Under the pieces are notes generated by a model. That model ran no database searches, was not told the origin of the DNA, and saw only the letters and a list, made by a program, of their open reading frames with translations. From positions 3,906,001 to 3,970,000 of the forward strand of contig CM038999.1 in the NCBI GenBank assembly GCA_017499595.2: a stretch of 64,000 bases of DNA, given 5' to 3'. Each line of letters begins with the position of its first letter. Positions within the stretch are counted from its first letter, which is position 1. The translations under genes were made by a program, and so were the position numbers. Shown here piece after piece: positions 19,999 through 61,746 of the stretch. The DNA is from Psilocybe cubensis (Eukaryota).

Positions 19999-20225
19999 TT
20001 GCCCACCTCTCGCACAGGACATCGAAGAGGAGGCGGATGATGCCTTTTCCGCCGGTAATACGACGGCGGAGTCCGATGATTCCGGTAACCTTGGAAGAGC
20101 TCAGCGCGGGCGCGTCGGAAACACCCTGGGACAGAGAATTCTGGTTGTTCTGTAGCTTTCGTACCGTTTTGTTTTGGAAATATAAAAAAATCTTCCCCAA
20201 ACCCAACTTCCAAGTCAAAAACTGA

Positions 20226-35848: not shown

Positions 35849-38800
35849 TCAGTAGCCAAAATGTACGTATGGAACCCATTTCAGTAGTCCAAGCTCACTA
35901 TTTCCAAGATTCTGTCGAACCACTGATGTAGCATGGTCGAGGGCATAGGCAGCAAGATTACCGTCCAATCCGTTTGATCCCATCCTGCCTAACAAATACC
36001 TATAGAACTCCTCTGCAAACAATGGGCCGTGCTTGTCTGAGATATTCCACATCGTACCCACCACTCCATGATACCCAGTTGCAAGCATTCCAGCGGCAAT
36101 ATGGACTACCTCCTCCGATAACTTGCTGTCACCCGTTCCAGTTTGGCATGCAGCCAAGAATGCTACGCGTTTATTTTGGGTGTGCTTTTGCATTGTTTCG
36201 AGTAATTCCAGGCGACCATCATGCAAGCAAAGGCCACTCGACAGAGCGTTGTTGGGATCTTGAATCCCATGGCATGCAAAGTGTACCCAACCGTGTGCGT
36301 CTAATTCATTTTTGACCCTGTCACGAGTTGCATCAGCGTTTTCTAATAATAGTGTGTTTATCCCTGATTTCTCCAAAAGGGATTTGATTGCTTGGGTCTC
36401 TGTCTTTGTGGATGGTATAGATGGGAGACCTGGCGTCCATTGTTGGCTGACCAGAAGAACACTGGTCTTTGCACATCTCCCAGAAGATGATTTTTCGAAC
36501 TTCTCGGTTAGGGAACGCACCGTCGGTGTATAGGATGAGATTACAAAGTCAGCGACGCTGATTTGTTCCTTCGGCCCATACACACCAGCTGCATGCAGTG
36601 GAAGGAATGAAAGTGGTCCCGATGGGCACCACCATAATCGGGGTCGATCTGATCGTTTTGGGGGTATCTGTATTGGTATTTAAAATGTTAACAATTATAA
36701 TGGAGGGTAGCAAGGGATCCCTACAGTGTATGCGAGCACGTCGAATATTGGTTTCACTACATTGAACCAAAGAACCTCTAGTATGAGGCGAATAGAGCTA
36801 TCGAGTGACACCGCTGCACCACGATTTTCTGACCCAGTAGACCGATTCTTCAGAGCATCGACCTGAAGTGTTTCGTAAAGTGCTTTTGCTTTGTCTTGAC
36901 TGAAGTCTTTCAGTGGAATATGAATTGGGGCATTTACTCCATGCAAAAGTGCCATCGCATCGCAGCGATCACCATTGATATTGAATAAAATCACTGGGCC
37001 GTCCCGAGGTAGGGTAGAGAGGAGCTTCGCTATTTTGCAGGGCTGGAGAAAATCTTCAAAACCTGCCATCTGTCGAATTACTTCAAGTACCGCGTTATAC
37101 TCTGCCGCTGTACGGCTATGGAGAAGTGTGGTGTCGTGCGATCGGGCTCCATCCTCGAGTGTCTCGTGAAGAGATGGACCTATGCTAGACCGGACACCAA
37201 GATGCTCCAACAAATGCGCACTTTTTGTGAACCTGTCAGCCAAAGACGGATTCGTCTCGCGAAGACGGTCGACTGATGTTCGAAGCTCGTCGATCTGATT
37301 CCACACCAAGCAGCGGCCGTGCTCCAACCATTCTACAGCTGTATCAAAGCGGCTGACATTCAACGCGGCAGCCACCCCGCATTGTAAGAGATTCGAATAC
37401 TTATGAAGATTGACATGACGGTGATGAATTGTTTGTTCAATCCCAGCTACTTCCGAAAGCAAGCGGACTAGAAGCTCATAATGCGGAATGGAAGAAGATG
37501 GATCGAACACCTGCGATATCAACGCTGCACCTTTGGCACAGTCAAGGCGCGTGGCAGGTAGCCCCATTGCTCGAGCACCGCGGCTATAGTGAGCTATTGC
37601 GGAACGAATATCCGCTAAGCTTCTTGTCTTCTTGAAGCGGTGTACGTTGAAGTCTCCAAAATTCTTGAGATATTCAGGAAGGTTGACATGATCAGCTGGC
37701 GTTGATCCTACCACATTCTCCTGGTACGATATAGCATGTCCGATGTCGCTGAGATCATTCGTAAAAGAGAAGCGACACGAATACGAAGACGCGATGTTGG
37801 CTAGAAAAACAGGCCGGTCCATGTGGCCTGCTGGAGTGGCTTCGAGTGCACGCCTATGGTACAATATTGCAGACGAAATGTCAGTTGGATCACCACTTTG
37901 TTGATATGCATATAGATATGAATTTCCTAAATTACTGAGGCGTCCCGGAAGATCTGCGTGTCCGGTTGGGGTAGCCTCCAATGCTTTTAGATGGTGGGTT
38001 ATTGCCGACTCAATATCGGTTCTTTGACCGGTTTTCTGAAAGCGACGTAATGCAGAATTACCAAGGCCAACTAAAGAATCAGCTTTACAAAAATGACTCG
38101 CAGGGGCTATTTTCAGGGCCATTTCGTGGTGGGAAATTCCGTGGTTGATATCAGCCATGTCTCCAGACCTTTCGAAACGACGTGCGTAAGAATTCCCAAG
38201 GCTTAGGTGGAATAAAGCCAGTGAAGCAGGATCGTCAGGGTTAGAATTCAGTGCCCTCTGGTGGTAATGCAGTGCAAAATCTACGTCGGTTAGGTTTCCC
38301 GTCCTTTCAAAGCAGCGCAAATACGAAGTTCCAAGGTTCTTCAGCAAGGTGGGATAGTCAGGGCAGCTTGAAGGAGTCAGGTATACAGCTTTCTGATGGT
38401 AAAAGATTGCTGATTTTATGTCGGAAATATGTGCACCATGTGCAAATCTGTACGAGTATGCGTTGGCCAAGTCGTCAAGCATACCAGCATATTTTGAAGG
38501 AACGGGAACAAGGTTCATGTTTAGAACGCTCTTCGAGAAAGAGTCAACAGCAGTGTTGAGCGGAGTAAGGTCATCTCCAGAGAAGACAGTAGGGTATACA
38601 GCTTGTCTCAAATACGATATGGCTGTTTCATTGTCGAGGATATTCCCTCCTCGAATATATCGGTTTAGGTATAATTTCCCCAAAGTTCCTAAATGACTGA
38701 AGAGATCGACGTGGCCGGAGGGGGTGCACTGCAAGGCCTGGTTGAGATAGTAGATTGCGGAGTTCTCGTGATGTATATCACCAGTCTGATTGAAACGTAG

Positions 38801-39605
38801 AGTCGCTACTTCTGCGAGCTTCCTGAACCATAACCAGCGATCAATTAGGGGAAAGGTTCCAAATTCTGCCGCAACTTTCAACACCAGTGTAGCCCATTCA
38901 ATGTCTTGCAAGTTCCCTGATTGCTGACAACGTTCCGTTAGTGCACGTCCAAGGCTCTTCAGTCGTTCCACCTATAAGGTCGTTAATTATCAAACCGGTA
39001 CATAACAAATTCCCAGAACACACCGATGTCAAACACCTGAGACGTCCGGAATCTACATCGGGCGGTTGGTCTTGCCAAGCCCACCGAACGATATCAGGTT
39101 TTACGTATTCCAACAAGTCTTTCGATAGCTGGGGCCAGTAGTGTGTAGTGGTGCCTCCTTTGAAAATAATAAATGTAATAGATTGTCTTGTCTTTAGTTC
39201 AACGCTGATTCCCTTTTACACGATTTAACGAATTGTTGTCAATGGAGTGAGCAAACTCTTACATTTGGGGCGACTTCACCGTGAAATTGAATTTGAAAGC
39301 CGTATCTAGATAGATCATTGCTCCTGAAGAGAGTTGAAAGGTCATATCGCAGGAGAATGGTAGAGACCTACTTCATAGCGTCAACTGTCAAGAACATCGA
39401 AGTTTTTGTGACCTTGTAATCGAGCGTAGAATGAATTATTCCCGGAAGATCAACTGTTAGATATATAAAACCCTGTAATCGATGGTTTAGGCCAAAAGAA
39501 TAAGCATGCAACTTGTGGTAATTTGTAGAGTCGACACACATTTCCACTGGCAGTAGAATGGCCACCCTGTGCCCATAAAACTGAGGGGACTCTGACACCG
39601 GCCAT
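35849..39605 (-). CDS. p23-like (CS) domain + TPR-like repeats + CHAT protease, copy 1 (apparently intact)
   Basis: Start MAGVRVPSVLWAQG; IYLTVDLPGI; YWPQL..KPDIVRW; repeated LxNLGxSY..RF..GD..DI..AI; CHAT motifs WWCPSGPLSFLPLHAAG, HFACHG, LAACQTG, WVPYVHFG. Confidence 0.85.
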
Positions 39606-40442
39606 CTGCTTTGACGATGTTCAGAGTTTGACGAAAATGTTAAGATGCGCAGCAGTGAAGACAAAGGCCGCGTACATGGTTGTTGAGTCGTCATTTTATC
39701 GTTATACGTGCCACCGCGGACATCGACTATTTCACAAGGATATTCCTAGCACAGGCCACGCAGAAGCAGCATTGTTCCATCATACTATAAGGATATGTGG
39801 AAAGAGAAGACGTTCACCGGCACCCTCATTACTTCACAGCCTCAAACGATCCGATTATGTGACACAAGGATGTCTGTGATAGATTGGGACATGGCTGTAA
39901 TGTTGGAATAACGGGATATAGCCGCAAGCAGAGTGAAAGGGAAGTATAGAAAATCTCAGACAACGTGGTAAGCGGGCAGCTGCGCTGTATAGTAGTAGTC
40001 GCTGAAAGAATGTTAGACGTCACACATGAACGCCTGCCAGGAATCTGCATAGCCGTGGCTTTTAGGGCGCAGTCAGATGGGTATGGGGCGCTTATTTGAC
40101 ATACGGCGCCAGCTTGCTGAGAGTGTTGGAAGTTTGGAACAAGTTTGGAAGCGAGGTTGATATGATGTGAGCGAAACACGAACGCGTCACTCTCTGGTCA
40201 CAGATTCCACCATAAGCTGCATTTTCGGAGCTTTCCGCCTATCGTCAGTTTCGAACCAAGATCGAACTACTCCTCTTCGGACCTGGACACCATGACCTGA
40301 ACACCAGCAACTCTGTGCAAGGCTGTCTACCCAATATTTTTCCAGCTTTCTGCGCAACGCAGTTAAATAAAAGCACGGCAACTTTACACGATATTCTGGG
40401 GCGTATAGGCAGGTATAGGCGATTATTTCCAGTGATTTAAAT

Positions 40443-43400
40443 TTAGTATCCGAAATGTACGTATGGAACCCATTTCAGTAGTCCATGCTCACTTTTTCCA
40501 AGATTCTGTCGAACCACCGACGTGGCATGGTCGAGGGCGTAGGCTGCAAGACTACCGTCCAATCCGTTTGGTCCCATCCTGCCTAACAAATACCTATAAA
40601 ACTCCTCTGCAAACAATGGACCGTGCTCGTCCGAGATACTCCACATCGTCCCAACCACCCCGCGATATCCAGCGGCAAGCATCCCAGCGGCCAGGTGAAC
40701 CACCTCTTCGGACAGCGCAAAATCTCCTGTCGAAGTTTGACAAGCAGACAAAAACGCTAACTGGGGTTCCTGAACCCGCTCCTTCATAATTTCAAGCAGA
40801 TCCATACGGCCATCATGGAGGCAAAGGCCGCTCTCGAGGGGTTCTTTTGCATCCTGGACCCCATGACATGCGAAATGTACCCAACTGTATGAGTTCAATG
40901 CTTCTTTGACTTTCTCGCGAGTGGCCTCGTCATGTTCTAACAGCAGTGTTCGCACGCCGTGTTTATCCATCATTGCCTTGAGTGATTTTGTTTCGCGTAT
41001 GGTGGATGGTATAGCCGGAAGACCCGGTGTGTTTGGCTGGCTGATAAGGAGGAGGCCGGATTTACTTCTCGAAGGTGAAGGAGACTTGGAAGCTTGGAAT
41101 TTCTCGATGAGAGATCTGACAGTTGGTGTATATGACGACACGACATAGTCAGACACACATGTCGGGTTTTGTGAGCTGTATAGGCCAGCCGCGTGAAGCG
41201 GGAGAAACGAGAGCGGGCCTGAAGGACACCACCAAATACGTGGACGATCGGCTCGGTTGAGAGGAATCTGGATTGCAAAGCGGATGTCATAAAAAATCAG
41301 CATTGTTTTGGGAATGATATCTTACGGTATATTTGAGCGCGTCAAGGATAGGCTTGACTATTTTGTACCAAATTACTTCCAGCGTGAGCACGATGGAGCT
41401 ATCAACATGGTCTATAGCACCCCGATTGAGATCCCTTGCCGTTCGATGATTATGGATATCATCCTGAAGGGTGCCTTGAAGGCTCCTTGCCAGTTCGTCG
41501 TCAAAGTTGTCAAGTGGGATGTAAAGTGGCTGATCCAATCCACCCGTTAGCGCCAGTGCATTGCAGCGGTCGGTTCCTATACTGAATAATATCACTGCGC
41601 TATCAGGAGGTAACGATGCAAGTAGGCTGGTAGCTTTAGCTGGCTGAAGGAAATCCTCAAGCCCAGGAAGGTCGCGAACTTCTCTAAGAACCTCCTTATA
41701 ATTCTCAGCAGTACGGGTATGGAGTAGAATTTGATCTTGCCAACGTATGTCGTCTTCTATAGAAGAAGCCATGTTGTTCGTCTCGGAGCGCGGTCCAAGA
41801 GTGTCCAGCGTCTTCGCGACGAGCATGAATCTGTCGGCCAGGACAGGATCTTTATTCCGCAATTGGTCGAGTGGGGCACGAAGCTTGTCGATCTGGTTCC
41901 AAACTAGGCACCGACCTTGTTCAAGCCATTCAACAGCAAGGTCAGGCCTCCCGTTGTCGATTGCAGCAGTAACACCTAGAGGGACAAAACCAGCGCTGTC
42001 TTCAAGTTGAAGATTTGCATGACGCCGTTGAATGGTCTGTTCTAACCCCGCAACTTCTGAGAGCAAACTGATGGCAAGACCGAAAAGATATATCGAAGGA
42101 TTGGGGACAATGTTAGAGCTCTGTGATAGTATTGCTGCAGTGCTGGCACAAGAAAAACGTGATGAGGGTGGACCAGATGCTTCGGCACCTTGACAAAGGT
42201 GAGATAACGCGGAGTTGATATCAGTGTTGTCAAAGGTCTTCTGGAAACGTTTTTGACGGGATAATGCAAGGTCGTGGAAGCTTTCCGGAAGAGAAGCATG
42301 CCCATGAGGGGTGACGTCTAGTGCTTGTTGAAACAGAGATATTGCTACGTCAATATCTGCAATATTGCTACTGTGGTTAAAGCGAGATTGGTAAGACCTG
42401 CCTAGATTTTTAAGTCGTCTAGGAAGGCCTGAATCGGTAGCAGACTTTGTGAGGTCAACCGCTTGTTTGTGATAGGATATCGCGTGTTCGACATCAGCTA
42501 CATCTCTAAATAAATGGAATCTCTGCATATACGAATTCCCAAGGTTTGTAAGAAAGCGTGGAAGTTGAGCATGACCTGCCGCTGTCAAGCTCACCGCTTT
42601 GTGGAGGTGAAAAATAGAGGAATCAGCATCTTTGCGATCGCCCAAAGCAACCAAACGATATCTGTACGAATTTCCAAGGTTGGAATGACGGCCACCAAGA
42701 TTAGGATGTCCAGCAGGCGTCAGCTCCACTGCCTTTGTATAATGATTAATAGCAGAATTGACGTCAGCGAGAATATTGGTTCGTTCAAAGCGACATAGTA
42801 GAGAGACACCGAGGTTGATAAAATGGCCAGGAAGATTGGGGTCATCAGCTGCAGTGAGTTGGATTGATCGCTGAAGGTGCAATATTGCAGTATCGATATC
42901 CGCAAGGTCTCCTCTCATTTGGAATCGACATGTGTACGAAGTGCCAAGGTTATGTAAACAAATAGCCTGGTTGGATTGCTGTAGCATACCCGCCTCGACT
43001 GATTTGGTTAGGTGGTGTATGGCTAAATTGATGTCATCGAAATTTCCTTGTCGTTCAGCACGAAATAGAAGAGACGTGCCCAGGCTATGGTGACAACCGC
43101 TAAAATCCTGGTGGCCTTCATGAATCAGTTCAACAGCGAGTTGGTGTTGGTAAATTGAAGAATCAACGTCAGCAAGATCTCCGAGTCTTTCAAAGCGACG
43201 AAAAAGGGAAGTTCCAAGATTATTCAGTCTATTAGGGAGCTCAGAGTCATTAGCAGAGGTGTGGTCCACGACATGGCGGAGGAGAGATATAGAACGATCA
43301 ATATCTATCGGATCCCCTCTTCTCTCGAAAAGAAGCTAAAAATAGTAACCTAAGTTGTTGAGCAATGTCAAATGCAACGGTTGACTGGAAGGGACACTTT

Positions 43401-44359
43401 CCAACGCATCTTCCGTTATCTCTATGGCTGCGGCAAGGTCTTCCATGTTACCCCAATTCTCAAAGCGACCTGCAAAGGCGCATGCTAGCATATGTTGACG
43501 TCTCGGTTTCTCCAGTTGCCAGTCGGAAGTCAGGTTAACCGCCTTGTTGAGTTTGGAAATTGCCATGTTCAAATCGTCGCGATTCTGAAGACTAATAAAT
43601 CGGTTTACAAAAAAGATCCCGAGCTGCTCGCATTCTTCCACCTGTTGTTGTTTTCTGAGTATGTAAATCATATTTGATACCCAGAAGAAACTTGCCTCCT
43701 CAGACGTTGAACCATTATATCCCATCTCCGTCCTTTCAGGATCTGATACATCGTCGGGATCATCGGCTTCCCAGGTCCTCCGAGTACCACAATTCTCGTC
43801 GATGTCATCGGCATCTGATTCGTCCCCTTCCCAGGTCCATCGACTGAAGTCCATTTTGACATTCTCCAGTGCAAGGTTAGACAACCGCGGCCAATATCGA
43901 AGTGTTAGATCGCGTTTCAAGATGGCAAATGTTATCGAGTTTTCTGTTCTCTGCTTGATCAATGCCTTTACTGGGAGATTAGAACGACAACATGAGAGCC
44001 ATAGAGTGCTATGATTCACCTGTGTTTCAACATTCGCATAAAAGTCAAAAGCAACCTGATATTCGTTGACCTCTTCGTCTTGGCTATGAACCGGAGATCA
44101 GACACTCGAACAGGATATTGGGATATTCACTACTCTTTTGCGTAGGCTTTCAAGGAAAAGGAGGTCTCTGTAACATTGTATTCCACGGTTGAATGTATTA
44201 TCCCTGGAATATTTATTGTCAGGTAGATAACGTTCTGCATAATGGATGTTGTAAGCGCAATCAGGCCATCTGGAGTGGCTAATGACTGATCACCTTTTGT
44301 TTGATGATGGAAGAGCTTCGCTGTGCCCATAGAATAGTAGCCATTTTCACGGCAGTCAT
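40443..44359 (-). pseudogene. p23-like + TPR-like + CHAT protease, copy 2 (premature stop)
   Basis: Start MTAVKMATILWAQRSS; YWPRLS..KMDFSRW; CHAT HFACHG/LSACQT; TAG at 43336-43338 where copy 3 has GAG within a continuous exon. Confidence 0.8.
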
Positions 44360-45117
44360 GACATGTGGAGGTTCAACGTGGAGGTCCTGAAGTATTCTCT
44401 TTGCGAAGGAATGAATGCAATGCTGGCAAAACTAGGTGATGAACATGGCCTTGTTTATCGATCTCCAGGATGGAAAGCAAGAGAACAGAATGAAAACGAG
44501 AAGCACGTCGCTTACTTAGTAGGTTGAGGCCGGCTTGGTTAACTGATGCTCGATAGATCCGCAAGTAGGCTCGTTGCGCTTGTTGAGTTTCTGACTAATT
44601 TTTATTTTTTCGAAGTCCGCTGGGTCTGAGACCGAACTTGGAGGTCCGAATAAAGCTCGCGTGATGTTTTCCGGCCAAGCAACAACTTGCCAACAAACAA
44701 CCAACAACGCTATTTACGTGGAATCAACATGGAATCCTTGACGTCTATCATGATTAAACCTTGGACCCAAAGCAAGGGGTCTATATGAAAAATGTTTGAA
44801 GATTGGGAGCATCATCAAGTATTATCTGATTATTTACTTCGAAGTACCCGGCGAACTGGTATGAGAGACTGCTTTGGTGAGCTAGCTGAATGCTTTCAAA
44901 ACTACAATATAAGTGTAAGCTCACGCTCCATATTATGTCTCCATTGGCAGACAGATAGTATCCGAAGCTACCTTCCGCGGTAAGTGGTCCAAAAATGATA
45001 TAACAACAACTGATAACGACAGTAGACAACGTAAAGATTTAAACACGGCAAAAATTGATTAAAGACAGGAGAGTCAACAGCAGTTTGTTCAAAGAATTGT
45101 CTTAAATTGGGGTGTAC

Positions 45118-46269
45118 CTAAGCAAGAGACGCCGGCTCAGAGTTTGGGAGGGGCGCAAACTGCTTTGTTCCTTGGTCTCTAACAAGCGTCAGACCCTTCA
45201 ACTCGACAGCCCCAACGCTGAAGTTCAAAGCTTGGTAAAAGAGAACGATCCGGTCTTGGGTAGGAAGTACGGCAGCGATTGTGCTTCTTGGTGTAGGCGT
45301 CCCCAAAACGACAGGGGCAGATGCCTTGTAGTCCTTGATGGTGATCATCTTGATGTGGTTGTTCTGAGACGACGTATAGAAGCAATAGAGCAGGGCTCCA
45401 TCGTCGACAATGGCGAGACTAGTGTGGGGTGCGAATTTGAGGTCTAAAGTCCGAATTGTCTCAACCACTTGATGGAAATCGTCAATAACCTTGTCTGAGA
45501 ATGGTAAGTTGTATGCTTACTAGCTTCTTGAGAATGTGCAAGCGCAAGTGTGTCCCATTGCAGGTATACGACAGGCATCTTGCTATTGGGAATTACCGAA
45601 ATTCCAGGTCTCACTTTAACTGCACATAGTGATGTGCCGTAGAGTGGAGGGTCAACGACACGCGGGGGAGGAGGGGGAGGGGGAGGAGGGATGGGTGTCA
45701 TATCCGGTATGCCTTTGACCCACTGGTTCGTCTTGGTTGTGAAGCTGACCATCTCAATACCGGCATCACGTCGGGGAGATTGATAATAGAGGCAAATGGC
45801 CTGGAAGCCATTTTCCGCAATGGTTGTCGCGGTGAGTTGGGAATACGCAGCTACACGTATGGCTAATGTAGCAAGCCCGGCTTCTTGTGCCCAGTTGGGA
45901 GATTTAACGCCACGAAGGGTATTGGTGTCGTCAACATAAAAGACGTACTAGTAAGCAGCATTGTCAGCTCGCCGAATTTAAAAACCTTTGACTTCTGCTC
46001 TTAAATACCTTGGTAGAAGAGATGACGGACGCTGCCAAAGGGGTGTACAACTTGGGCGCGTTAGGCCTCTCAACGCTGCCTTGATAACGAGAGACGACAT
46101 GATTCTGGTGGTCATACATGTAGATGTCGACGTTCTGGGTGCCAATTGGGACTTCAAGAGCACCTTGGCACTCGATGATAGCCCCTTGGGTAGTCTGCGC
46201 ATATGTGAAAACGTCTTTGTTGAGAGAAACAGTTGCAAGAGCGGTATCGGGGAGGTAAACACCAGCCAT
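45118..46269 (-). CDS. Fucose-specific-lectin-like beta-propeller protein (3 exons)
   Basis: Repeated blade-like motifs TALATV/TPLAAS/SQLTAT/TSLCAV/TSLAIV/STIAAV each followed by I/V-x-L/F-Y-x-Q-like strands; polyproline linker; no signal peptide seen. Confidence 0.55.
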
Positions 46270-51500: not shown

Positions 51501-53882
51501 TTGTCGATTTTGACCCTTTGGATACCTGACCCTACTTCCGAGACAAAACTGTTTGCCGAGGATGCTCAAAAGTTTATACGAGTGTTTGGCGGAGTTCTGG
51601 ATGAAAGTGTCCCCCATTTGTATCTGAGTGCAATCCCTTTCGCTCCCCGCCAATCTGTAATATACCGGACGTATAACCAATTCTTTCATCACACATTAAA
51701 GGTTGCAGAAGGCCATTTAAATAATTGGCCTACCTTACAGCTGACTATCACCAGTCATTATGACGCTGTCAATTCGGCTGCCTTTTCTCCTGATGGCACT
51801 CTTATTGCTTCTGGTTCGGATGACGAATCAGTGATCGTGTATGATGCTGTTACGGCAGAGGAAATATACACTTTTGAAGAACACGCCGAATCCGTCCTTT
51901 GTCTTGCATTTTCACCGAAAGGAGAGCTACTGGCATCGTGTTCTGACGACGGAAATGTAATTCTTTGGAACCCGAGAACAGGAGCGGTCGCCCACAGATG
52001 GGAGCACGATGGGGATTCCGCACAGCACGTAGCCTTCTCTGCTGATGGTACCAAGCTTGCTGTTGTTCTGGAGAAATTGTCCGTATGTGTATATGCCGTG
52101 AGCTCGGGAAAAAGGCTCAAAACATTTGGGAAGAAACTTGACGACCCCTCGCTTTGCGCAGCCTTCTCACCAGATAATCTATGTATTGCCTCTTCTACGG
52201 AGAGCGGAAAAATCTACATCTGGGACGTAAAATCTGGGAATGAGCTTCAAATTCTTGGTGCTGACGATGAAGACCCATGGACAGTTTCGTCTATTGCCTT
52301 TTCGCCGGTCGATAGTAACATCCTCGCTACTGTATTGCATGACGACTCCGTCTGTATTTGGGATATCGCTAAATCCGCCAAGATTCATGTTCTGGAGGGA
52401 CATACCGATTCAGTTACCAGTGTAGCATTTTCCTCGGATGGAACCAAAGTTGTCTCGGGTTCAGCTGACACCGACATCATCATTTGGAATGCAATAACAG
52501 GCGAAGAGATAAACACTCTCGAGGGTCATTCTGACTGGGTACAATCTGTTTATTTTTCACCTGACGATTCCCAGGTCGTCTCGGCATCCATCGATAATAC
52601 GGTTTGTGTTTGGGACGCAGTGGCAGGGCACTCAACTGAATATGTTTTGGAGGGCCATTCTGCCTGGATAGCGGCAGTTTGCTTATCGTCTAATGGCGAT
52701 TTCATCGTGTCTGCCTCTCATGACTGTACCATAGGAATTTGGGATTCAAACACCGGGACCCTTATAAAATATCTTGAAGACGGGCATGAAGATCCCATAA
52801 AATGGGTCACCGTATCATCGGATAACCTTTGGGTCGCTTCTGCATCCGACGACGAAATGGCAATTATCTGGGACATCGAATCGGGGAAAGTAATCAAAAC
52901 CTTCAAAGGTCACACTGACAGCATCAGTTGCGTGGCTTTCAAGTATGATAACTCCAAGATTATCACCGCCTGCGACGACTACCTCGTTCACATCTGGGAT
53001 GTAGAAACTACCAAAATCGATCTGGTGTTTAACAAGCACACCGATGTCGTATTTGCAGCCCAATTCTCACCAGACGGAGAAATTGCCGCTTCGTGTGGAT
53101 CCGACAAGTTGACCTACGTTTGGAATTCTTCCACAGGGGAAATTTTGCATACCTTGAAAGAACACGAAGACGATATTTACAATCTTGCATTTTCTCCCAA
53201 CGGAGAACATCTTGTAACAGGATCTCATGACTGTTTGCTTTGCATATGGGACATCAAGAGCGGTCAATTGCTGAAGAAACTCGAGCAGGTTGATACCGCC
53301 CTCAGTGTTGCATATTCCCATGACGGAACAAAGATCGTTTCCGGCTCCGACGATCATATGGTTTATGTATGGGATGTTGAATCGGGACAGGTAGTTACTC
53401 AGCTTGAAGGGCACTCAGGATCTGTTCAAGCAGCGGTATTTTCCAATGACGGTTCAAAAATTGTATCCTGTGGGGCGGATAGAATGATCCGTGTCTGGGT
53501 TCTCGAAAAACAGCCAGGTATGTTCTCGACGTGGACTTGTCCTGTATTCAAATTTTACTCATGACATTGTATATCGATAGGCGACGACCACAACATCCAA
53601 TTCTCCAATGTGCCAGAGCACGCTTTGAAGATTACTGAAGATTTTTTGAACTTCACTCCATTGAACGAGGACGATGATAAACCTGTAACCAAGGTATGGG
53701 ACCAAGCGTGTGGATGGGCGGTGGGACCGAAAGGTCAGAAGTTATTCTGGGTCCCACCTCAGTTTCACGGGGGCCTCATTACTCCCAGCACCTCGTTGTT
53801 AATCGGGCCTCAAAGGACTACTCTTGATTTGAGTGACCTTGTTTATGGTTCCGAGTGGCCAAAGTGTTTTCTTCAGAATTAG
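48572..53882 (+). CDS. NLR-like STAND protein: helical N-terminal domain, NACHT NTPase, ~14 WD40 repeats (HET-E-like architecture)
   Basis: Walker A VSGGAGTGKST, Walker B LIVIDALDES, HTSFYDFL, YACKFWANHL and FLFWLEV, then 14 GH..WD-type repeats; start codon and 5' exons uncertain. Confidence 0.9.
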
Positions 53883-55058: not shown

Positions 55059-55569
55059 GATGACACAATTCGTCCAAAGATGGTGGTAGTTGGAGGTCAA
55101 GAGTGCTTTTTGTTTTTAGAATTTGCTTCCGTCCAATCCCGTGTGCGATATGATGCAATCTGGTGCAATCGGCATCCTCCATTTCTTCAGTCTCGAAGGC
55201 GTTTGGGTCAAGTTATAGTACTAATAGGTTTCAGATTCGCGAACATCCATGATAACGAAAGATTTTGAACCTAAAGGCTTTGACGTCTGTGGTGTACGAG
55301 TAGTCAACACAGACGTGAACGTTCGCAGCACGTGACAGCCTGCGCGTCTGGGACCCAGATATGGTAGGACGCGCTTAGGCTTGAAAATTGTGTTTGTGAC
55401 CATCGACACGAAATAAAGAATGCATAAGTTTATATTTCCAGTATTTTACTTGACACAAAACTCGGTTTCTTTTTGAAATACCTGAAAAGTCTTCTTGCAG
55501 CCACTGGTTTGCCACAGGTAGCTATGGTGGCTGTTTTATTTTTCAAAGTCCGAAAGGTTCATCACTGAC

Positions 55570-56165
55570 TAGTGTTGCCGCCAGAGTGCAGTGCAGTGAC
55601 AGTGAAGCCATTTTTGGGCGACTGTGACACGCTTCACAGTGATCACAGTCCCTGTGAAGTGCTGTGAAGTGTTTGTGACGTCATTCACCGTCTCGACCTC
55701 ATAAAATGGTCGACGAAAGGTTGACGCTTTGCAAGTCATTTTGTCTATATGTATTTGCTCATTCAGTGTCCTAATAGTCCAAGACACTTCAATGTAGCAA
55801 TTTTTTTGACTTTTCTCAACAAATCCGGCGAAAACCAAGCAGAAATGTGCGTCGACGACAAGATCAAAGGGATCTGGACCACGTGCACTGTTGAATACTT
55901 TATTGCAATCTTATCTAGATAGATAAAGGTCATGTGCAATAAATATCCTCCATATATAGTAGGTATCCCGGACATTCTCATGTATTCGACAAAAATGCAT
56001 GTAATACTTCCATATTTAGTCTAGATTATCTGACACTGCAATTTACGGCACACTTTGCAGAGCACTTCACTGCGACTTTGTTGCGCTGTGAAGTGTGTCG
56101 GAGAATGAAAAAACAGAGTGCAGTCACAGTCACTGCAGAGTGACTGCGCTCTGGCGGCAACACTA
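55570..56165. mobile_element. MITE-like element (~600 bp)
   Basis: ~23-bp TIRs TAGTGTTGCCGCCAGAG(T/C)GCAGT with one mismatch; CAGTG/CACTG-rich subterminal repeats; no convincing ORF; no TSD seen unless the terminal TA is the TSD. Confidence 0.75.
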
Positions 56166-56468
56166 ACAGTACTGATGATTCATCAGTACTTTAAATTTTG
56201 ATGTCCGCTGGTGTTCCGCGTGTTCCGGATTATGTATATTTCAAATTTGCTCTTACGGTCACGGGCACACAATGTCACAAGTGTGTCAGCGTCACCCTAG
56301 TAGCTGTTCGTTTTTCTTTTTTTTCATTGAAGATCGGGCTGCAAGGCCTTGCTCACCACCTAATTTACCCTGGTCCATCAATAATTTAGCTTTAAAGCTT
56401 CTGAAAGGCTGTAATCTCATGGAAGGCTCGGAGGCCTTTGCCTTGTATGCATTAAACCTCTGCATGAC

Positions 56469-59400
56469 ATGTCCGCCGTAAAAAGGCCTACTCTTCTATG
56501 GGCTCAACGAAGCTCGTCCAGTATCAAACAAAAGGTGAACAATTGTTTGACACTCTAGAATGACTAATTGTACTAAGGACACCTGTCATATAGAATTATA
56601 TCTACCTCACCGTAGATCTTCCTGGGATAGTGCACTCAACCGTGGTGTACGACATTACAAATACCTCCTTTTCCTTGAAAGCCAACGCAAAAGAGTAGTG
56701 CCCGTCAACAATATCTTGTTTGAGTAACTGATCCCCTGCTATTAGTGAAGGCGAAGATGACCTTGAATATACCGTTGCCTTTGACTTTCATGCGAAAGTT
56801 GAACCGCCGGTGAGGAATAACACTCTATAATCACTCTCGCGTCCTCGTTCTGATCTTCCAGTAAAGGCATTGGTGAAACAGAGGACAGACCATTCAGTGA
56901 CATTTGTCATCTTCAAACACGATCTGACCATTCGATATTGGCCGCGACTGTCTAGTAATCCTGAGCTAACCAATGTGAAGACGGATTTCAGCCGCTGGAC
57001 CTGGGAAGGGGACGAATCAGATGCCCCTGAAGACGAAAATCAGCGTGTTGATGTCATCGATAAGAATTGTGGTGTTCGGAGTGTAGACCCTACAGATACA
57101 GCCCGTCCCTTCCCAGATTCACGTTGGGTTGCGGCTCCAAAGGGCATGTTTGGGGATCTCTTCTGGCCTGAGAAGTTAAAGACACACAACAAAGGCCCAT
57201 CATCCAGCATGCCCTCAGCAACTCCTCATCTGAAATGGGCCCAGAGAAGTTCTGCGACGGACAAGATAAAGGTCGGAACCTGACACTTGGTAATTTCATT
57301 CATTGATTTCTCAAATATCACAATGCAGAACATCATTTGGCTCACAATCATGATCCCTCACATCCTGGAATCTACTTTGACCTGCAAAGTCACTGATACA
57401 AGCATCTCATTCAATGCATGTGGCAGGGAGTAAGTTTCTGACCATTCATTGTTATGCAGCTGGTTACTGAATCAATGTTGGGTGATAGAGGATACGATGA
57501 ACGTCGGTTTGTTCTTGAACTCGAATTGTACAGTGACGTCGAGGTATATAGGCAATAGGGACCTTCAGAGTTGAAATACGACCCGACTAGTCGGTCGTAT
57601 TTGGCCCTGTCCAATTACGCTTAGTAAGTCAAAGTTCAAGGTCCGCTTTGTGACTGATGTGACGGAATTGCGGCCCTCTTATCACTGGCTTCCACCATCT
57701 TCAATCCTCTCCCCATCACCATTCCTATGGAGGCTTTCATTTCATGCCTGTATATATTAGACTATTAAGATTTTGCTCTCCATGAAGTACTGACCATCTT
57801 TCTGGTCTTGTTTGCATGATCAAGGACTGATGATATGAAATATTTCACTCATCAGTGCCTGTAATTTAGATACTGCTGTAACAGCACCTCCAGAGGACAT
57901 TTTCGCAACACATAGAAACACATTTTGTTTGTTTAATCATTGTTTAATTCTCTAACCACACAGGAGATGCACCAAACACGTCAATACTGAAATGAGAGTA
58001 TAAGAAGCAAGCATTGATTCGGTCTCATCAACCCCCATCTCTGTTTCCCCTTGCCATTTTTTCTTAGTATCGCTCAATGCCTATTCAACAATCTACGTAG
58101 ATTAAATATTATCTACGCTGTCTACGTCATTGGGAGTGACATAGAAGTGACAGTCCAAGACAAGGCCAAGCACAGTCGGACTTCGAATCATCAAATCGGT
58201 GGCGTCGAAATACGACCGACTAGTCGGGTCGTATTTCAATTCTGAAGGTCCCTAATTACTTTTATTTATCAGCTAAAACTTACATTTGTTTCAGGAGGTT
58301 TCACGAGAACTTTCAGAACAATTTTTTATGATAATCCTTCACAAGAGAGTGATGACTGCGCGTTTTTGGCCTCGTCTACAGAAGGACGTCAGAATTTCCC
58401 CTTATATAGGAGCTGATTTTAGGCGATGGACGTGGGAAGGTGACGATTCTGAAGATGTAGCAGTTGATGAAAAGACAGCGATAGGATATAACGGATCTAT
58501 TTCCGAGAAGGTGCGTTTCTTTTGGGAATTACATATGGTCTACATGCTCAGACAATAGTAACAGGCTGAAGAATGTGAACAATTAGGGATATTTTTTATA
58601 AAGCGGTTTGTTCGTCTTCAGCATCACGACGATTTGAACATGGCAGTTTCCAAATTCAAAGAGGCGGTTAATTTGACTTCCGACTGGCAACTGGAGAAGC
58701 CGGAACGTCGAAATATGCTAGCATGTACCTTTGCAGGTCGTTTTGAGCACTGGGGTAACGTGGAGGACCTTACCGCCGCCATAGAGATACTGGAAGATAC
58801 ATTGGAAAGTGTCCCATCCAGTCAACCGTTGCACTTGACGTTGCTGAACCACCTAGGCCATTGTTTTGAGCTTCTTTTTGAGCGAAGAGGGGATCACACG
58901 TATATTGATCGCTCCATATCTCTCCTCCGCCGTGTTGTGGACCACACATCCGCTGATGACTCTGAGCTCTCTACCAGATTGAATACTCTCGGACTTTCAC
59001 TGCTTCGTCGCTTTGAAAGATTTGGGGATTTTGCTGACATTGATTCTTCAATTTACCATCACCAACTCGCTGTTGAACTGGTTCATGAAGGCCACCAAAA
59101 TTTTAGTGGTTGTCACCATAGCCTCGGCATATCTTTGTTATGCCGTGCAAAGAAAAATGGCAATTTGGATGATATTGATCTAGCAATACACCACCTAACC
59201 AAAGCCTTTGAATCGTGTATACAACTACATAGGGCAGTTTCTTTGCATAGCCTTGGCACTTCTTATATGTGTCGATTCGAAATGAAAGGTGATCTCGCCG
59301 ATATTGATACCGCCATACTTCACCTTCAGCAATCAATCTTCCTCAGTAAAATCGACGACCCCCTTTTACCTGGCCATTTCATCAACCTCGGCGCATCTCT

Positions 59401-61746
59401 ACTGTGTCGGTTTGAACGAACACATGTTCTTGCTGACGTCGATGCTGCTATTAATCATTATACAAAGGCAGTAGAGTTGACGCCTCTTGGACATCCTAAT
59501 CTTGCTGGACGTTATTCCAACCTTGGAAATTCGTACAGATTTCGTTTGGGAGCTTTAGGCCACCGGGAAGATGCTGATTCTTCCATCCTTAACCATCAGA
59601 AAGCGGTGGAATTAACGCCGGCTGGTCATGCTCAACTTCCAACATTTCTTACAAACCTTGGGAGCTCGTATATCCAGCGATTTGAATTGTTTAAGGATGG
59701 AGCTGATGCTGATCAGGCGATACTCTACCACAGACAGGCCGCCGACCTAACCTCTTCTCCTGCACAACTTCCTGGGCGCCTTAACAATCTAGGAGGCTCC
59801 TATCTGTCTCGTTTTAACTTCGGTGATAACATCGTAGACGTTGATGCAGCAATATCTCTGTTTCAACAAGCGCTAGACGTAACCCCACATGGCCATGTTT
59901 CTCTTTCCGAAAGGTTTTACAGCCTTGCACTATGTCACCAAGGACGCTTCCAGAAGACCTTCGACACTACTGATATCACCTGCGCGTTATCATGCCTTTG
60001 TCAAGGCGCTGAAGCACCTGGTCCACCTTCTTCACGTTTTTCTTGTGCCAGCACGGCAGCAACATTGTCGCAGGATATTGACCCTATTCCCAACCCGTCG
60101 ATGTATCTTTTCGGTCTTGCCATCAGCTTGCTCTCAGAAATTGCTGGGATAGAACAGACCATACATCGTCGTTACGCTAACCTTCAAGGTAGCGCTGGTT
60201 TTGTCCCTCGGGGTGTTGCCGCGGCACTAGACCACGGAAGGCCTGACCTTGCTATTGAATGGCTTGAGCTAGGTCGGTGTTTGGTCTGGAACCAGATCGA
60301 CAGGCTTCGTACCCCAATCGACCAATTGCGGGACAAGAATCCCTTGCTTGCCGACAAGTTCACGCGTATTGCAAAGATGCTGGACACTCTTGGAGCGCGA
60401 TCCGAAACCAACAACCCGTCTTCTTCTATGGAAGACGACATTCGTATCCAAGATCAGACTCTACTCCATACACGTACTGCTGAGAGTTATAAGGAAGTGC
60501 TGCAAGAAATTCGCAGCCTTTCTGGTTTTGAGGATTTCCTTCAGCCGGCTAAAGCCACCAGCCTACTTGCATCTTTACCTCCTAATGGCGCGGTGATATT
60601 ATTCAGCATAGGAACGGACCGCTGCAACGCACTTGCGCTAGCGGGTGGGTTAGACCAGCCACTTTACGTCCTTCTTGACAACTTTAACTACGAGCTGGCA
60701 AGGAGTCTTCAAGGTACCCTTCAGGATGATATCCATAATCATCGTATGGCAAGGGATCTCAATCGGGGTGCTATAGACCATGTTGATAGTTCCATCGTGC
60801 TCACACTGGAAGTACTATGGCACAAGGTAGCCAAGCCTATCCTTGACGCTCTCAGATATACTGTAAGATATCATTCCCCTAGACATTGTCGATTTTTTAT
60901 AAATACCCGCTTTACAATGCAGATTCCTCTCAACCGAGCCGATCGTCCACGTATTTGGTGGTGTCCTTCAGGCCCGCTCTCGTTTCTCCCGCTTCACGCG
61001 GCTGGCCTATACAGCTCACAAAACCCGACATGTGTGTCTGACTATGTCGTGTCGTCATATACACCAACTGTCAGATCTCTCATCGAGAAATTCCAAGCTT
61101 CCAAGTCTCCTTCGTCTTCGAGAAGTAAAGCCGGCCTCCTCCTTATCAGCCAGCCAAACACACCGGGTCTTCCGGCTATACCATCCACCATACGCGAAAC
61201 AAAATCACTCAAGGCAACGATGGATAGACAGGGTGTACGAACACTGTTGTTAGAACATGACGAGGCCACTCGCGAGAAAGTCAAGGAAGAATTGAACTCA
61301 TACAGTTGGGTACATTTCGCATGTCATGGGGTCCAGGATGCAAAAAAACCCCTCGAGAGCGGCCTTTGCCTCCATGATGGCCGTTTGGATTTGCTTGAAA
61401 TTATGAAGGAGCGGGTTCAGGAACCCCAGTTAGCGTTTTTGTCTGCTTGTCAAACTTCGACAGGAGATTTTGCGCTGTCTGAAGAGGTGGTTCACCTGGC
61501 CGCTGGGATGCTTGCCGCGGGATATCGCGGGGTGGTTGGGACGATGTGGAGCATCTCGGACGAGCACGGTCCATTGTTTGCAGAGGAGTTTTATAGGTAT
61601 TTGTTAGGCAGGATGGGACCGAACGGATTGGACGGTAGTCTTGCAGCCTACGCCCTCGACCACGCCACGTCGGTGGTTCGACAGAAACTTGGAAATAGTG
61701 AGCATGGACTACTGAAATAGGTTCCATACGTACATTTCGGATACTA
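56469..61746 (+). pseudogene. Tandem 2x p23-like + TPR-like + CHAT protease, copy 3 (nonsense codon near the C-terminus)
   Basis: MSAVKRPTLLWAQRSS...YWPRLS..KTDFSRW, then a second domain PHLKWAQRSS...FWPRLQ..ADFRRW; CHAT HFACHG/LSACQT; TGG>TAG at 61718-61720 cuts off WVPYVHFGY. Confidence 0.8.
57556..58254. mobile_element. MITE (~700 bp) inside an intron of CHAT copy 3
   Basis: 47-bp TIRs TAGGGACCTTCAGAGTTGAAATACGACCCGACTAGTCGGTCGTATTT (57556-57602 / 58208-58254, one mismatch); removal leaves a normal short GT..CAG intron. Confidence 0.85.

What the first reader, a model, noticed from the sequence alone, without database searches (positions are those of the whole stretch)
35849..61746. Family of caspase-like CHAT proteases headed by a p23/Sba1-like Hsp90 co-chaperone domain
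Seen: each of the three TPR-CHAT genes has small 5' exons that the ORF track misses. They encode P-x-[VL]-x-W-A-Q-(R-S-S), IYLTV[DN]LP, [YF]WP[RQ]L and DF[SR]RW-like motifs plus an acidic tail. Known: these are hallmarks of the CS-domain co-chaperone p23 (Sba1/Wos2); CHAT is a His-Cys caspase-fold protease; the NLR chaperone SGT1 also pairs CS and TPR domains. Inference: a captured p23 domain may act as an integrated decoy or sensor, or as an Hsp90-docking module that gates a death protease. I do not recall this architecture being described, but could not search for it.
Basis: partly seen in the sequence, partly recalled or inferred. Interest (0 to 1): 0.88.

Follow-up and report, generated by a model that had tools for sequence, protein, structure and literature searches.

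The report
Caspase-like proteases with p23 heads
Three neighbouring mushroom (Psilocybe cubensis) genes encode large caspase-like proteases that begin with a copy of the small Hsp90 helper protein p23, a rare and so far undiscussed fusion that may link a cell-death enzyme directly to the Hsp90 chaperone.

Summary
The window matches a Psilocybe cubensis assembly. Three paralogous TPR-CHAT genes lie at 35849-39605 (-), 40443-44359 (-) and 56469-61720 (+). Each starts with small exons that encode a p23/Sba1-type CS domain, and gene C has two in tandem. The head matches the solved yeast Sba1 chain at E 8.6e-13. A profile of the heads matches a profile of stand-alone p23 at E 6.8e-40. Pfam's own CS model misses the heads. 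Contigs of two RNA-like runs skip the predicted introns, and one contig joins gene B's p23 exons to its TPR exons. The heads form one lineage (SH-aLRT 90). I found them only on TPR-CHAT proteins of three Agaricomycete species (six proteins). Genes B and C keep all 11 of the most conserved p23 positions, including the Phe/Trp pair that Sba1 needs to bind Hsp90. Hsp90 docking is therefore my preferred mechanism, but it is inferred, not shown. Gene B has an in-frame TAG and gene C stops 9 codons early, so only gene A is intact here. Automatic annotation already flags the domain ('Protein wos2', 'CS domain-containing protein'). My two searches for the combination found no paper.

The parts
35849..39605 (-). 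Gene A (P0022, JR316_0002774, 1160 aa): p23-like head + TPR + CHAT. This is the only copy with an uninterrupted reading frame.
   Evidence: Exon map. The spliced CDS is 3483 nt with no internal stop. CHAT E 4.4e-36. AF2 model mean pLDDT 85.9, pTM 0.77.
39023..39605 (-). Gene A p23-like head, four small exons (39605-39540, 39472-39372, 39323-39263, 39212-~39023; boundaries +/-2 nt).
   Evidence: Contigs of X1 and X2 skip 39211>39262 and 39322>39371 with GT..AG ends on the - strand. Contigs of the DNA runs X3 and X4 do not. The model shows seven beta strands at residues 8-94 with pLDDT about 85-96. It keeps 8 of the 11 most conserved p23 columns (R13G, R104Q, F117I).
35852..36667 (-). Gene A CHAT protease domain with CHG (His) and ACQT (Cys) motifs.
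   Evidence: PF12770 E 3.9e-37. It aligns with Csx29 TPR-CHAT 7zoq_A at E 7.7e-5 across both motifs. The fold matches separase and Craspase Csx29.
40443..44359 (-). Gene B (P0002, 'Protein wos2', 1207 aa model): p23-like head + acidic linker + TPR + CHAT, with one in-frame stop.
   Evidence: stop at codon 269 of the RNA-supported CDS. X1 contig record 2 (2885 nt) runs from 44545 to 41444 through all the head exons into the TPR region.
43795..44359 (-). Gene B p23-like head (exons 44359-44294, 44234-44134, 44083-44020, 43965 onward).
   Evidence: Sba1 match E 8.6e-13. 11 of 11 conserved p23 columns kept. Joints 44234>44294, 44083>44134 and 43964>44019 appear in X1 and/or X2 only.
43642..43695 (-). 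54-nt GC-AG intron of gene B, which the public model translates as 18 residues.
   Evidence: Joint 43640>43695 in X1 and X2 contigs, movable by up to 3 nt. The ends are GCAAGT..AACAG. It is homologous to gene C's GT-AG intron 58511-58564.
43336..43338 (-). In-frame TAG in gene B's TPR region. The public model hides it inside a 60-nt 'intron' (43336-43395).
   Evidence: Gene C has GAG at the same place. X1 contig record 2 is continuous over 41444-43640 with no gap, so it does not splice this stretch out.
40446..41267 (-). Gene B CHAT domain, nearly identical to gene C's.
   Evidence: PF12770 E 6.5e-41. pS between B and C is 0.07-0.09 here against 0.30-0.50 in the first nine 100-codon windows.
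56469..61720 (+). Gene C (P0001, 'Protein wos2' / 'CS domain-containing protein', 1367 aa): two tandem p23-like heads + TPR + CHAT, ending 9 codons early.
56469..57040 (+). Gene C head 1 (CS1).
   Evidence: 70% identical to gene B's head, and the two form a clade at 97*. 11 of 11 conserved columns kept.
57221..58492 (+). Gene C head 2 (CS2), interrupted by a 751-nt intron.
   Evidence: phmmer E 9e-24 to gene B's head. Its nearest relative is head 2 of the Piloderma protein P0121 (50% identity). 11 of 11 conserved columns kept. Exon 56867-57271 joins CS1 to the first strand of CS2 in one frame.
57556..58254 (.). 699-bp MITE-like insertion with 47-nt terminal inverted repeats inside the CS2 intron.
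   Evidence: arms 98% complementary. Contigs of the DNA runs X3 and X4 join 57553>58254 and so lack it. Without it the intron would be about 51 nt.
61718..61720 (+). TAG in gene C where genes A and B have TGG. It removes the conserved last strand (W-V-P-Y-V-H-F-G-Y).
   Evidence: Gene C's CHAT match stops at profile position 252 of 289, against 288 of 289 in genes A and B.

Best explanation
These are three paralogues of the Agaricomycete TPR-CHAT family. The family consists of large sensor-plus-protease proteins, NLR-like in layout but here without an NTPase. One characterised fungal member (Podospora Q2L-6) cleaves a gasdermin to kill the cell. What is special in this window is the N-terminus. 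It is a domain derived once, long ago, from the Hsp90 co-chaperone p23/Sba1/Wos2, and it is duplicated in gene C.

Shown: the fusion is real in the DNA. For genes A and B it is also real in contigs of RNA-like runs. The head is a true p23 homologue. It has been under purifying selection. Genes B and C keep every one of the most conserved p23 positions, including the Phe/Trp pair with which Sba1 grips the Hsp90 middle domain.

Inferred: the head docks the protease onto the closed, ATP-bound Hsp90 dimer. Hsp90 would then hold the protease in a poised, inactive state, much as HSP90 with the CS-domain protein SGT1 does for plant and animal NLRs. Ligand capture by the TPR array, or loss of the closed Hsp90 state, would free the CHAT His-Cys site to cut a downstream death effector. 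The tandem heads of gene C could occupy both p23 sites of one Hsp90 dimer.

In this assembly only gene A is intact. Genes B and C each carry one recent nonsense change.

The confidence given (0.45) is for the Hsp90-docking mechanism. That the architecture itself is real I hold at above 0.9.
For: Homology of the head. It matches Sba1 chain 2cg9_X at E 8.6e-13 over the full domain. Stand-alone Agaricomycete p23 proteins are the best short hits at E 1e-20. Profile against profile gives E 6.8e-40. The AF2 model of gene A shows seven strands at residues 8-94.

The fusion is real. In gene B one open frame spans half of the head plus the first TPRs. X1 contig record 2 links 44545 to 41444 across four skipped introns. 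Intron joints are seen in X1/X2 but not in the DNA runs X3/X4, for genes A and B.

Retained p23 function residues. There are 11 columns that are >=90% conserved in 128 stand-alone p23 domains. Gene B, C-head 1 and C-head 2 keep 11 of 11, P0230 keeps 9, gene A 8 and P0047 7. Columns F117 and W120 align with Sba1 F121 and W124. F121 is essential for Hsp90 binding and W124 for ATPase inhibition (PMC7864943, passages). WPRL is the p23 signature (PMC10098053, passage).

Selection. dN/dS over the head is 0.37 (B against C), 0.18 (A against B) and 0.28 (A against C).

Lineage. The 8 heads borne on TPR-CHAT proteins group together (SH-aLRT 90), apart from 128 stand-alone p23 domains. The head-1 types of Psilocybe and Piloderma group at 95*.

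Protease. CHAT scores E 1e-36 to 1e-41. The CHG and ACQT motifs align with the Csx29 catalytic region. The fold matches separase and Csx29.

Precedent. A fungal TPR-CHAT protein processes a clustered gasdermin (PMC8851545, passages). HSP90 with SGT1 and RAR1 serves NLRs in plants and animals (PMC4986451, passage).
Against: No binding to Hsp90 was tested or could be modelled here, because no fungal Hsp90 sequence was available to the tools. Gene A, the only intact copy, has lost 3 of the 11 conserved positions, including the Phe equivalent (F117I) and the Arg of WAQR and of WPRL. The Rickenella protein lacks the whole D-F-x-x-W segment. So Hsp90 binding is not obviously kept across the lineage. 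Pfam's CS model does not reach its threshold on any of the three proteins. The heads carry their own conserved W-T-W-E-G-D tail in place of the canonical acidic D-E-D-E, which could mean a changed partner. Genes B and C each have a premature stop. The only gene C contig shown for an RNA-like run (X1 record 5, 56592-57271) is continuous across two predicted introns of head 1. No gasdermin-like gene was recognised in the window, so the substrate is unknown. Only long ORFs were scanned, and only with Pfam.
Confidence: 0.45

Rival explanations
1. Integrated decoy or bait. The p23 copy does not work with Hsp90. It mimics the cell's real p23, so that a toxin or effector of a competitor, mycoparasite or mycovirus that attacks p23 is caught by the sensor-protease and triggers it.
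For: The N-terminal head is the variable part of an otherwise conserved chassis. Among 122 TPR-CHAT relatives the heads fall into unrelated families of 14, 7, 6 (p23-like), 4, 4 (NACHT) and 3 members. On the tree of the protein bodies the p23 label needs 3 changes. Conserving the surface residues of the real p23 is also what a decoy needs. p23 expression responds to a hypovirus in Cryphonectria (PMC10098053, abstract).
Against: The heads are an old, separate lineage only about 37-40% identical to present-day Agaricomycete p23, so they would be a poor mimic of the current target. No p23-targeting effector is known to me (recalled). Gene A and P0047 have drifted at signature positions.
Confidence: 0.15
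2. Hsp90-independent module. The beta-sandwich has been re-used as a generic interaction, oligomerisation, self-chaperoning (holdase) or autoinhibitory head of the protease. The p23 motifs persist for folding reasons only.
For: CS/HSP20-like sandwiches serve many partners (general knowledge, recalled). The lineage has its own conserved W-T-W-E-G-D tail and lacks the long p23 tail. Gene A and P0047 have lost Hsp90-contact equivalents yet keep the domain under purifying selection.
Against: Genes B, C1, C2 and Piloderma head 2 keep 11 of 11 of the most conserved p23 columns. These include the solvent-exposed Phe/Trp pair, whose known role is Hsp90 contact rather than folding.
Confidence: 0.2
3. 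A decaying cluster. The architecture once worked, but in this strain the copies are pseudogenes or truncated leftovers and the fusion has no present function.
For: Gene B has an in-frame TAG after about 268 codons, and the X1 contig does not splice it out. Gene C loses its conserved last strand to a TAG and has a 699-bp MITE in an intron of head 2. One gene C contig retains two introns. The region is rich in mobile elements.
Against: Gene A is intact, and contigs of RNA-like runs are spliced at two of its introns. dN/dS between B and C is 0.12-0.39 in every 100-codon window, so each has only one very recent lesion. A fourth intact paralogue lies on another contig (P0230). Orthologous architectures persist in Piloderma and Rickenella.
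Confidence: 0.15

Closest known systems
p23 / Sba1 / Wos2 (Hsp90 co-chaperone, CS domain, p23 subfamily)
   Same: The whole CS domain is homologous. The WAQR strand, the WPRL signature and the D-F-x-x-W pair (Sba1 F121/W124) are kept in genes B and C, followed by acidic residues. The model of gene A shows a seven-strand sandwich.
   Different: It is not a small stand-alone protein. Of the 150 best hits of the head, 147 are 70-307 aa and only 3 are long, all from P. cubensis. The heads form their own lineage. They lack the long Gly/Met-rich client-binding tail, carry a lineage-specific W-T-W-E-G-D motif, and fall below Pfam's CS threshold. NCBI's name 'Protein wos2' is therefore misleading.
Fungal HET-Q2-like TPR-CHAT proteases (Podospora Q2L-6), activators of gasdermin HET-Q1 homologues
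   Same: [quoted passage not shown] They belong to a large, variable Agaricomycete family: 361 hits at E<=0.001 among the 8000 candidates scored.
   Different: Q2L-6 is described with TPRs and CHAT only (PMC8851545, passages). Here a p23 head precedes the TPRs. No gasdermin gene was recognised beside these genes. The neighbours are a NACHT-WD40 gene, an ARD dioxygenase and an unknown gene.
SGT1 (with RAR1 and HSP90), the chaperone adaptor of plant and animal NLRs
   Same: It combines TPR and CS domains and links immune receptors to Hsp90 (PMC4986451 passage; domain details recalled).
   Different: SGT1 is a separate adaptor with the order TPR-CS-SGS. Its CS domain is not p23-type and contacts Hsp90 differently (recalled). 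Here the CS is p23-type, comes first, and is fused to the effector protease itself.
Csx29 (TPR-CHAT) of type III-E CRISPR 'Craspase', and separase
   Same: Sequence match of the catalytic region (E 7.7e-5 to 4e-4). These are the best fold matches of the whole model (separase 9hma E 3.1e-12, Csx29 8eey_B E 4.0e-12).
   Different: These are bacterial RNA-guided or cell-cycle proteases. About 12% identity, no p23 head, different activators.

Membership tests
p23/Sba1/Wos2 subfamily of CS domains | Significant full-length sequence similarity to a solved p23 | tested here: met
   2cg9_X (Sba1) E 8.6e-13, query 8-129 against chain 8-130. Human p23 is only at E 0.085-0.16. Tested for gene B's head. 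The other heads are linked to it at E 1e-15 to 1e-57.
p23/Sba1/Wos2 subfamily of CS domains | Profile-level match to stand-alone p23 proteins | tested here: met
   hhalign of 8 heads against 128 stand-alone domains: probability 100%, E 6.8e-40, 121 columns.
p23/Sba1/Wos2 subfamily of CS domains | Pfam CS (PF04969) at or above its gathering score | tested here: not met
   No hit at E<=1 on P0001, P0002 or P0022, nor on the exons. Genuine Agaricomycete p23 proteins pass only narrowly (29 bits against a cut-off of 21.3).
p23/Sba1/Wos2 subfamily of CS domains | WPRL signature and the Phe/Trp pair (Sba1 F121/W124) used to bind Hsp90 | tested here: met
   Met in gene B, C-head 1 and C-head 2. Gene A has WPQL and Ile in place of Phe. 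P0230 has Pro in place of Phe. P0047 lacks the segment.
p23/Sba1/Wos2 subfamily of CS domains | Seven-stranded beta-sandwich fold | tested here: met
   The AF2 model of gene A has strands 8-14, 24-30, 34-43, 47-56, 59-68, 73-84 and 87-94 at pLDDT about 85-96. No separate fold search of the head alone was possible. The whole-model search returns only TPR/CHAT hits.
p23/Sba1/Wos2 subfamily of CS domains | Nucleotide-dependent binding to closed Hsp90 and inhibition of its ATPase | not testable with these tools
   No fungal Hsp90 sequence could be supplied to the complex predictor. A bench assay is needed.
CHAT caspase-like proteases (PF12770, clan CD) | CHAT domain above threshold with His and Cys catalytic motifs | tested here: met
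   E 4.4e-36 (A), 6.5e-41 (B), 2.4e-41 (C). CHG and ACQT align with Csx29. Gene C lacks the last 9 residues.
HET-Q2-like gasdermin-activating proteases | Genomic clustering with a gasdermin (het-Q1-like) gene | tested here: inconclusive
   No gasdermin family was hit among the ORFs scanned. Only long ORFs were scanned, and Pfam may not recognise fungal gasdermins. The rest of the genome was not available.
NLR / STAND receptors | Central NACHT or NB-ARC NTPase domain | tested here: not met
   No NTPase family was found in P0001, P0002 or P0022. Some relatives have one (P0061 NPHP3_N E 2.1e-20).
SGT1 | TPR-CS-SGS domain order with an SGS domain | tested here: not met
   The order here is CS-TPR-CHAT, and there is no SGS hit.

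The most novel reading that the evidence does not exclude
The p23 head makes the protease a built-in reporter of the state of Hsp90. p23 binds only the closed, ATP-bound chaperone and is displaced by the microbial Hsp90 poisons geldanamycin and radicicol (PMC11053944, passages). A p23-TPR-CHAT protein parked on Hsp90 would therefore be set free exactly when a competitor's toxin, or severe proteotoxic stress, shuts Hsp90 down. That would turn chaperone sabotage into activation of a caspase-like death or defence protease. This would be a fungal 'guard' of Hsp90, with tandem heads giving two-site grip on one Hsp90 dimer. A separate p23+HET fusion (P0271) hints that death domains have recruited p23 more than once.
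Probability: 0.12. Interest if true: 0.9.

Novelty: new variant of a known kind. Interest (0 to 1): 0.6.

Why it matters
Plant and animal immune receptors depend on Hsp90 through separate CS-domain adaptors. How the many fungal NLR-like death proteases are kept silent and then switched on is unknown. A direct, ancient and selectively maintained fusion of a p23-type Hsp90-binding domain to a caspase-like protease gives a concrete, testable handle on that question: does the head bind Hsp90, and do Hsp90 inhibitors release the protease? It also corrects database names, since 1200-1370-residue proteases are labelled as the co-chaperone Wos2. Finally, it adds a new head type to the modular repertoire of fungal TPR-CHAT proteins.

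Tried and rejected
Pfam on single exons and on the full proteins gave no CS hit. Homology was established by other routes.

The genome search 'own' answered that no genome is held for this window. I therefore could not locate the species' housekeeping p23, its Hsp90 or its gasdermin genes, nor count paralogues genome-wide.

I stopped that step, so no alignment-based database search for further fusions was made. The third protein search used P0001 residues 1-335 instead.

The look-up of sequencing runs listed no RNA holder. X1 and X2 are only guessed to be RNA. Parts of the laid stretch have no X1/X2 cover: 44803-48137, 55475-56141 and 57476-58799, the last of which includes gene C's head 2 to TPR junction. 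These gaps say nothing either way.

The read laying tables were cut (243 differences and 12 joints not shown). I therefore could not see whether other strains or the X1 contig carry TAG at 43336-43338. I also could not see the head-to-TPR joint of gene A. The end of gene C lay outside the laid stretch.

Complex prediction of gene A's head (residues 1-100) with its CHAT region (780-1160) returned 'no answer' (score 0.01). This is no evidence for or against an intramolecular contact.

The Foldseek search of the whole 1160-residue model returned only TPR/CHAT-type hits, so it gives no independent fold match for the head.

Searching solved structures and Pfam with the unknown gene at 45.1-46.4 kb gave only low-complexity noise.

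Dataset S1 of PMC8851545 and the supplementary files of PMC4986451 list architectures and could already contain p23-headed CHAT proteins.

Full report
WHAT IS THERE

The window is eukaryotic. Its protein models are those of a Psilocybe cubensis assembly. Three public proteins map letter for letter onto it:
- Gene A is P0022 (hypothetical JR316_0002774, 1160 aa), on the - strand at 39605..35852.
- Gene B is P0002 ('Protein wos2', 1207 aa), on the - strand at 44359..40446.
- Gene C is P0001 ('Protein wos2' at NCBI, 'CS domain-containing protein' at UniRef, 1367 aa), on the + strand at 56469..61717.

Each has a long TPR-rich open frame and a C-terminal CHAT domain (PF12770, E 4e-36 to 2e-41). The conserved CHG and ACQT motifs align with the catalytic region of solved Csx29 TPR-CHAT proteases (E 7.7e-5 to 4e-4). 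An AlphaFold2 model of gene A (mean pLDDT 85.9, pTM 0.77) finds separase and Craspase Csx29 as its best fold matches (E 3e-12 to 4e-12).

Other genes lie between the three. There is an unknown gene at 45.1-46.4 kb, a NACHT-WD40 gene (49905-53564) and an ARD dioxygenase at 54.0-55.1 kb.

THE HEAD IS A p23 HOMOLOGUE

Pfam's CS model does not hit them, either exon by exon or in the full proteins at E<=1. Three better tests, however, are positive:
- The first 136 residues of gene B's protein match the solved yeast Sba1 chain 2cg9_X at E 8.6e-13 over the whole domain.
- A full HMMER scan of 1.84 billion representatives gives 182 hits at E<=0.001. The best short hits (E 1e-20) are Agaricomycete proteins named 'Protein wos2' or 'HSP20-like chaperone'. 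These proteins themselves pass Pfam CS only narrowly, at 29 bits against a cut-off of 21.3.
- A profile of the eight heads against a profile of 128 stand-alone p23 domains gives probability 100%, E 6.8e-40.

In the model of gene A, residues 8-94 form seven strands at high confidence, followed by a disordered linker and then helices.

Gene C has two heads in tandem. One exon (56867-57271) runs in frame from the second half of head 1, through an acidic linker, into the first strand of head 2.

THE FUSION IS REAL

In gene B the second half of the head, the acidic linker and the first TPR helices lie in one open frame (43336..44097).

Two runs guessed to be RNA (X1, X2; not on record as RNA) hold contigs that skip the predicted introns with GT-AG ends:
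- In gene A: 39211>39262 and 39322>39371.
- In gene B: 44234>44294, 44083>44134, 43964>44019 and 43640>43695.
Contigs of two DNA runs (X3, X4) show none of these joints.

One X1 contig of 2885 nt runs from 44545, through all the head exons of gene B, to 41444 deep in the TPR region.

For gene C the evidence is weaker. The one contig shown (X1, 56592-57271) is continuous across two predicted introns of head 1. Nothing was shown for the junction of head 2 with the TPRs.

STATE OF THE THREE COPIES

The spliced CDS of gene A is open throughout.

Gene B has a TAG at 43336-43338 where gene C has GAG. The public model hides it in a 60-nt 'intron'. The X1 contig does not remove that stretch. I could not see which letter that contig has at the site, because the table was cut. 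The public model of gene B also translates a 54-nt GC-AG intron that both RNA-like runs splice out, and it uses a different donor for intron 2.

Gene C has TAG where genes A and B have TGG, which removes the conserved last nine residues. The intron inside its head 2 is 751 nt long because it holds a 699-bp element with 47-nt terminal inverted repeats. X3 and X4 lack this element.

Despite these lesions, dN/dS between B and C is 0.12-0.39 in every 100-codon window (0.37 over the head). pS is 0.30-0.50 in the first nine windows, up to about codon 906, and only 0.07-0.09 over the last roughly 300 codons. Both genes therefore evolved under constraint until very recently. Their CHAT ends have been homogenised, most simply by gene conversion between the inverted copies.

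Gene B's linker keeps a remnant of the tail of a second head. This suggests it descends from a two-headed ancestor by deletion.

DISTRIBUTION AND ORIGIN

Of the 120 best TPR-CHAT relatives of gene C (361 at E<=0.001 among 8000 candidates scored), 4 carry the head: P0001, P0002, P0022 and Rickenella mellea P0047.

Word-based searches with the head region among long proteins add two more:
- Piloderma croceum P0121, which has two tandem heads plus TPR plus CHAT.
- P0271, a 920-aa protein from an unnamed assembly, with a canonical-looking p23 domain and a HET domain (PF06985, E 2.3e-23).

The full HMMER scan adds a fourth P. cubensis paralogue on another contig (P0230, 1504 aa). Of the 150 best hits of the head in that scan, 147 are 70-307 aa and 3 are long.

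On a tree of 138 domains, the eight heads borne on TPR-CHAT proteins form one group (SH-aLRT 90, below the 95 star level), apart from the stand-alone p23 domains. The Agaricomycete housekeeping clade is starred (96). Head 1 of Piloderma groups with gene A, gene B and head 1 of gene C (95*). The p23 of the HET fusion nests inside a canonical clade (98*), so it is an independent event.

On a FastTree of the last 520 residues of 122 TPR-CHAT proteins, genes A, B and C form a clade (99*). That clade sits inside a 30-protein Agaricales clade whose other members have a different head or none. P0047 and P0121 pair elsewhere (95*). The p23 label needs three changes.

Together this points to one old capture of p23, followed by loss or exchange of heads on a conserved chassis. 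N-terminal heads in this family fall into unrelated groups of 14, 7, 6, 4, 4 (NACHT) and 3 members.

MECHANISM

Eleven alignment columns are >=90% conserved in the 128 stand-alone p23 domains: the WAQR strand, a Lys, WPRL and D-F. Gene B and both heads of gene C keep all 11. P0230 keeps 9, gene A 8 and P0047 7.

The D-F-x-x-W segment aligns with Sba1 F121-D-K-W124. In Sba1, F121 is essential for Hsp90 binding and W124 for ATPase inhibition (PMC7864943, passages). WPRL is the recognised p23 signature (PMC10098053, passage).

I therefore favour Hsp90 docking. On this view the head parks the protease on closed, ATP-bound Hsp90, which keeps it poised and silent. TPR ligand capture or loss of the closed state releases the CHAT site. 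This is inference; no binding was tested.

Three points count against it:
- The one intact gene in the window (A) has lost the Phe and two Arg positions.
- The lineage has its own W-T-W-E-G-D tail.
- No substrate gene was recognised nearby.

The rivals are an integrated decoy of p23, an Hsp90-independent re-use of the sandwich, and simple decay of the cluster.

The boldest reading not excluded is a guard of Hsp90. Sba1/p23 binding needs ATP-bound closed Hsp90 and is disrupted by geldanamycin and radicicol (PMC11053944, passages). Such poisons would therefore release a p23-tethered protease.

COMPARISON WITH WHAT IS KNOWN, AND NOVELTY

Fungal TPR-CHAT proteases are known. One of them, Podospora Q2L-6, processes a clustered gasdermin (PMC8851545, passages; review PMC12881547, passages). 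p23 is a textbook co-chaperone. HSP90 with SGT1 and RAR1 serves NLRs, and fungal genomes hold SGT1 (PMC4986451, passage).

I found no text that combines the two. There were 0 papers with 'CS domain' and 'CHAT domain' and 0 with 'TPR-CHAT' and 'p23'. The passages read from those three fungal papers do not mention a p23 or CS head. Their supplementary lists of architectures were not seen.

Automatic annotation has noticed the domain but mislabels two of the proteins as the co-chaperone Wos2.

I rate this a new variant of a known kind. The architecture is real, old, rare (six proteins in three species in my searches) and constrained. Its function is open and directly testable.

Noticed in passing
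window 57556-58254: 699-bp MITE-like element with 47-nt terminal inverted repeats (98% complementary), sitting in the intron inside gene C's second p23 head. Contigs of two DNA runs join 57553>58254 and so lack it, which makes it an insertion polymorphism.
   Followed up: partly
window 55570-56165: Second short element with 23-nt inverted ends, just upstream of gene C. DNA runs X3/X4 join 55557>56179 (621 bp absent), and summed contig depth there is 5-8 times that of the neighbouring bins, so it is probably multi-copy. The bin 47471-48137 also shows raised depth.
   Followed up: partly
window 49905-53564 (+), with upstream exons from about 48.8 kb: A NACHT-WD40 NLR-type gene (13 WD40 stretches, E 1.7e-109) lies between the TPR-CHAT genes. 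Contigs of the RNA-like runs cover it and skip an intron at 53515>53579. Its N-terminal domain was not identified.
   Followed up: partly
window 40446-41267 against 60923-61717: The CHAT ends of genes B and C (inverted copies about 17 kb apart) are far more alike (pS 0.07-0.09) than the first nine 100-codon windows of the genes (pS 0.30-0.50). This suggests recent gene conversion.
   Followed up: partly
window 41444-43640: The X1 contig differs from the window at 50 of 2197 positions in gene B's TPR region. It differs at only 1 of 270 and 0 of 353 positions in the head and 5' exons. The DNA runs share only some of these differences. This could be TPR hypervariability between strains or a paralogue-chimeric contig; it is unresolved.
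   Followed up: no
window 40443-44359 (public model P0002): Problems in the public gene model. A 60-nt 'intron' masks an in-frame TAG. A real 54-nt GC-AG intron is translated. The donor of intron 2 is displaced by 3 nt. A 15-nt gap (40578-40592) removes five residues that the open frame encodes.
   Followed up: yes
protein P0271 (unnamed assembly, 3248-nt contig): A 920-aa protein with a canonical p23-like N-terminus (34% identical to gene C's head 2) and a HET cell-death domain at 497-652. On the tree it is an independent fusion. It could be a genuine second case of p23 joined to a death domain, or an assembly chimera.
   Followed up: partly
window 14706-21014: A mobile-element block: CxC2 domain (E 1.4e-21), KDZ transposase (E 1.2e-37) and a Tet/JBP 2OG-Fe dioxygenase (E 3.1e-19) side by side. 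There is also a weak DDE_3 hit (26.7 bits, below Pfam's 28.6 cut-off) at 4631-5746.
   Followed up: no
window 45118-46376 (-): A multi-exon open frame with a 13-residue proline run. It has no Pfam or PDB match beyond low-complexity noise. Function unknown.
   Followed up: partly
protein P0121 (Piloderma croceum): Its TPR array consists of many nearly identical 42-residue repeats. Fungal NLR repeats with high internal conservation are reported in PMC4986451 (passage). The Psilocybe copies have much more diverged repeats.
   Followed up: no
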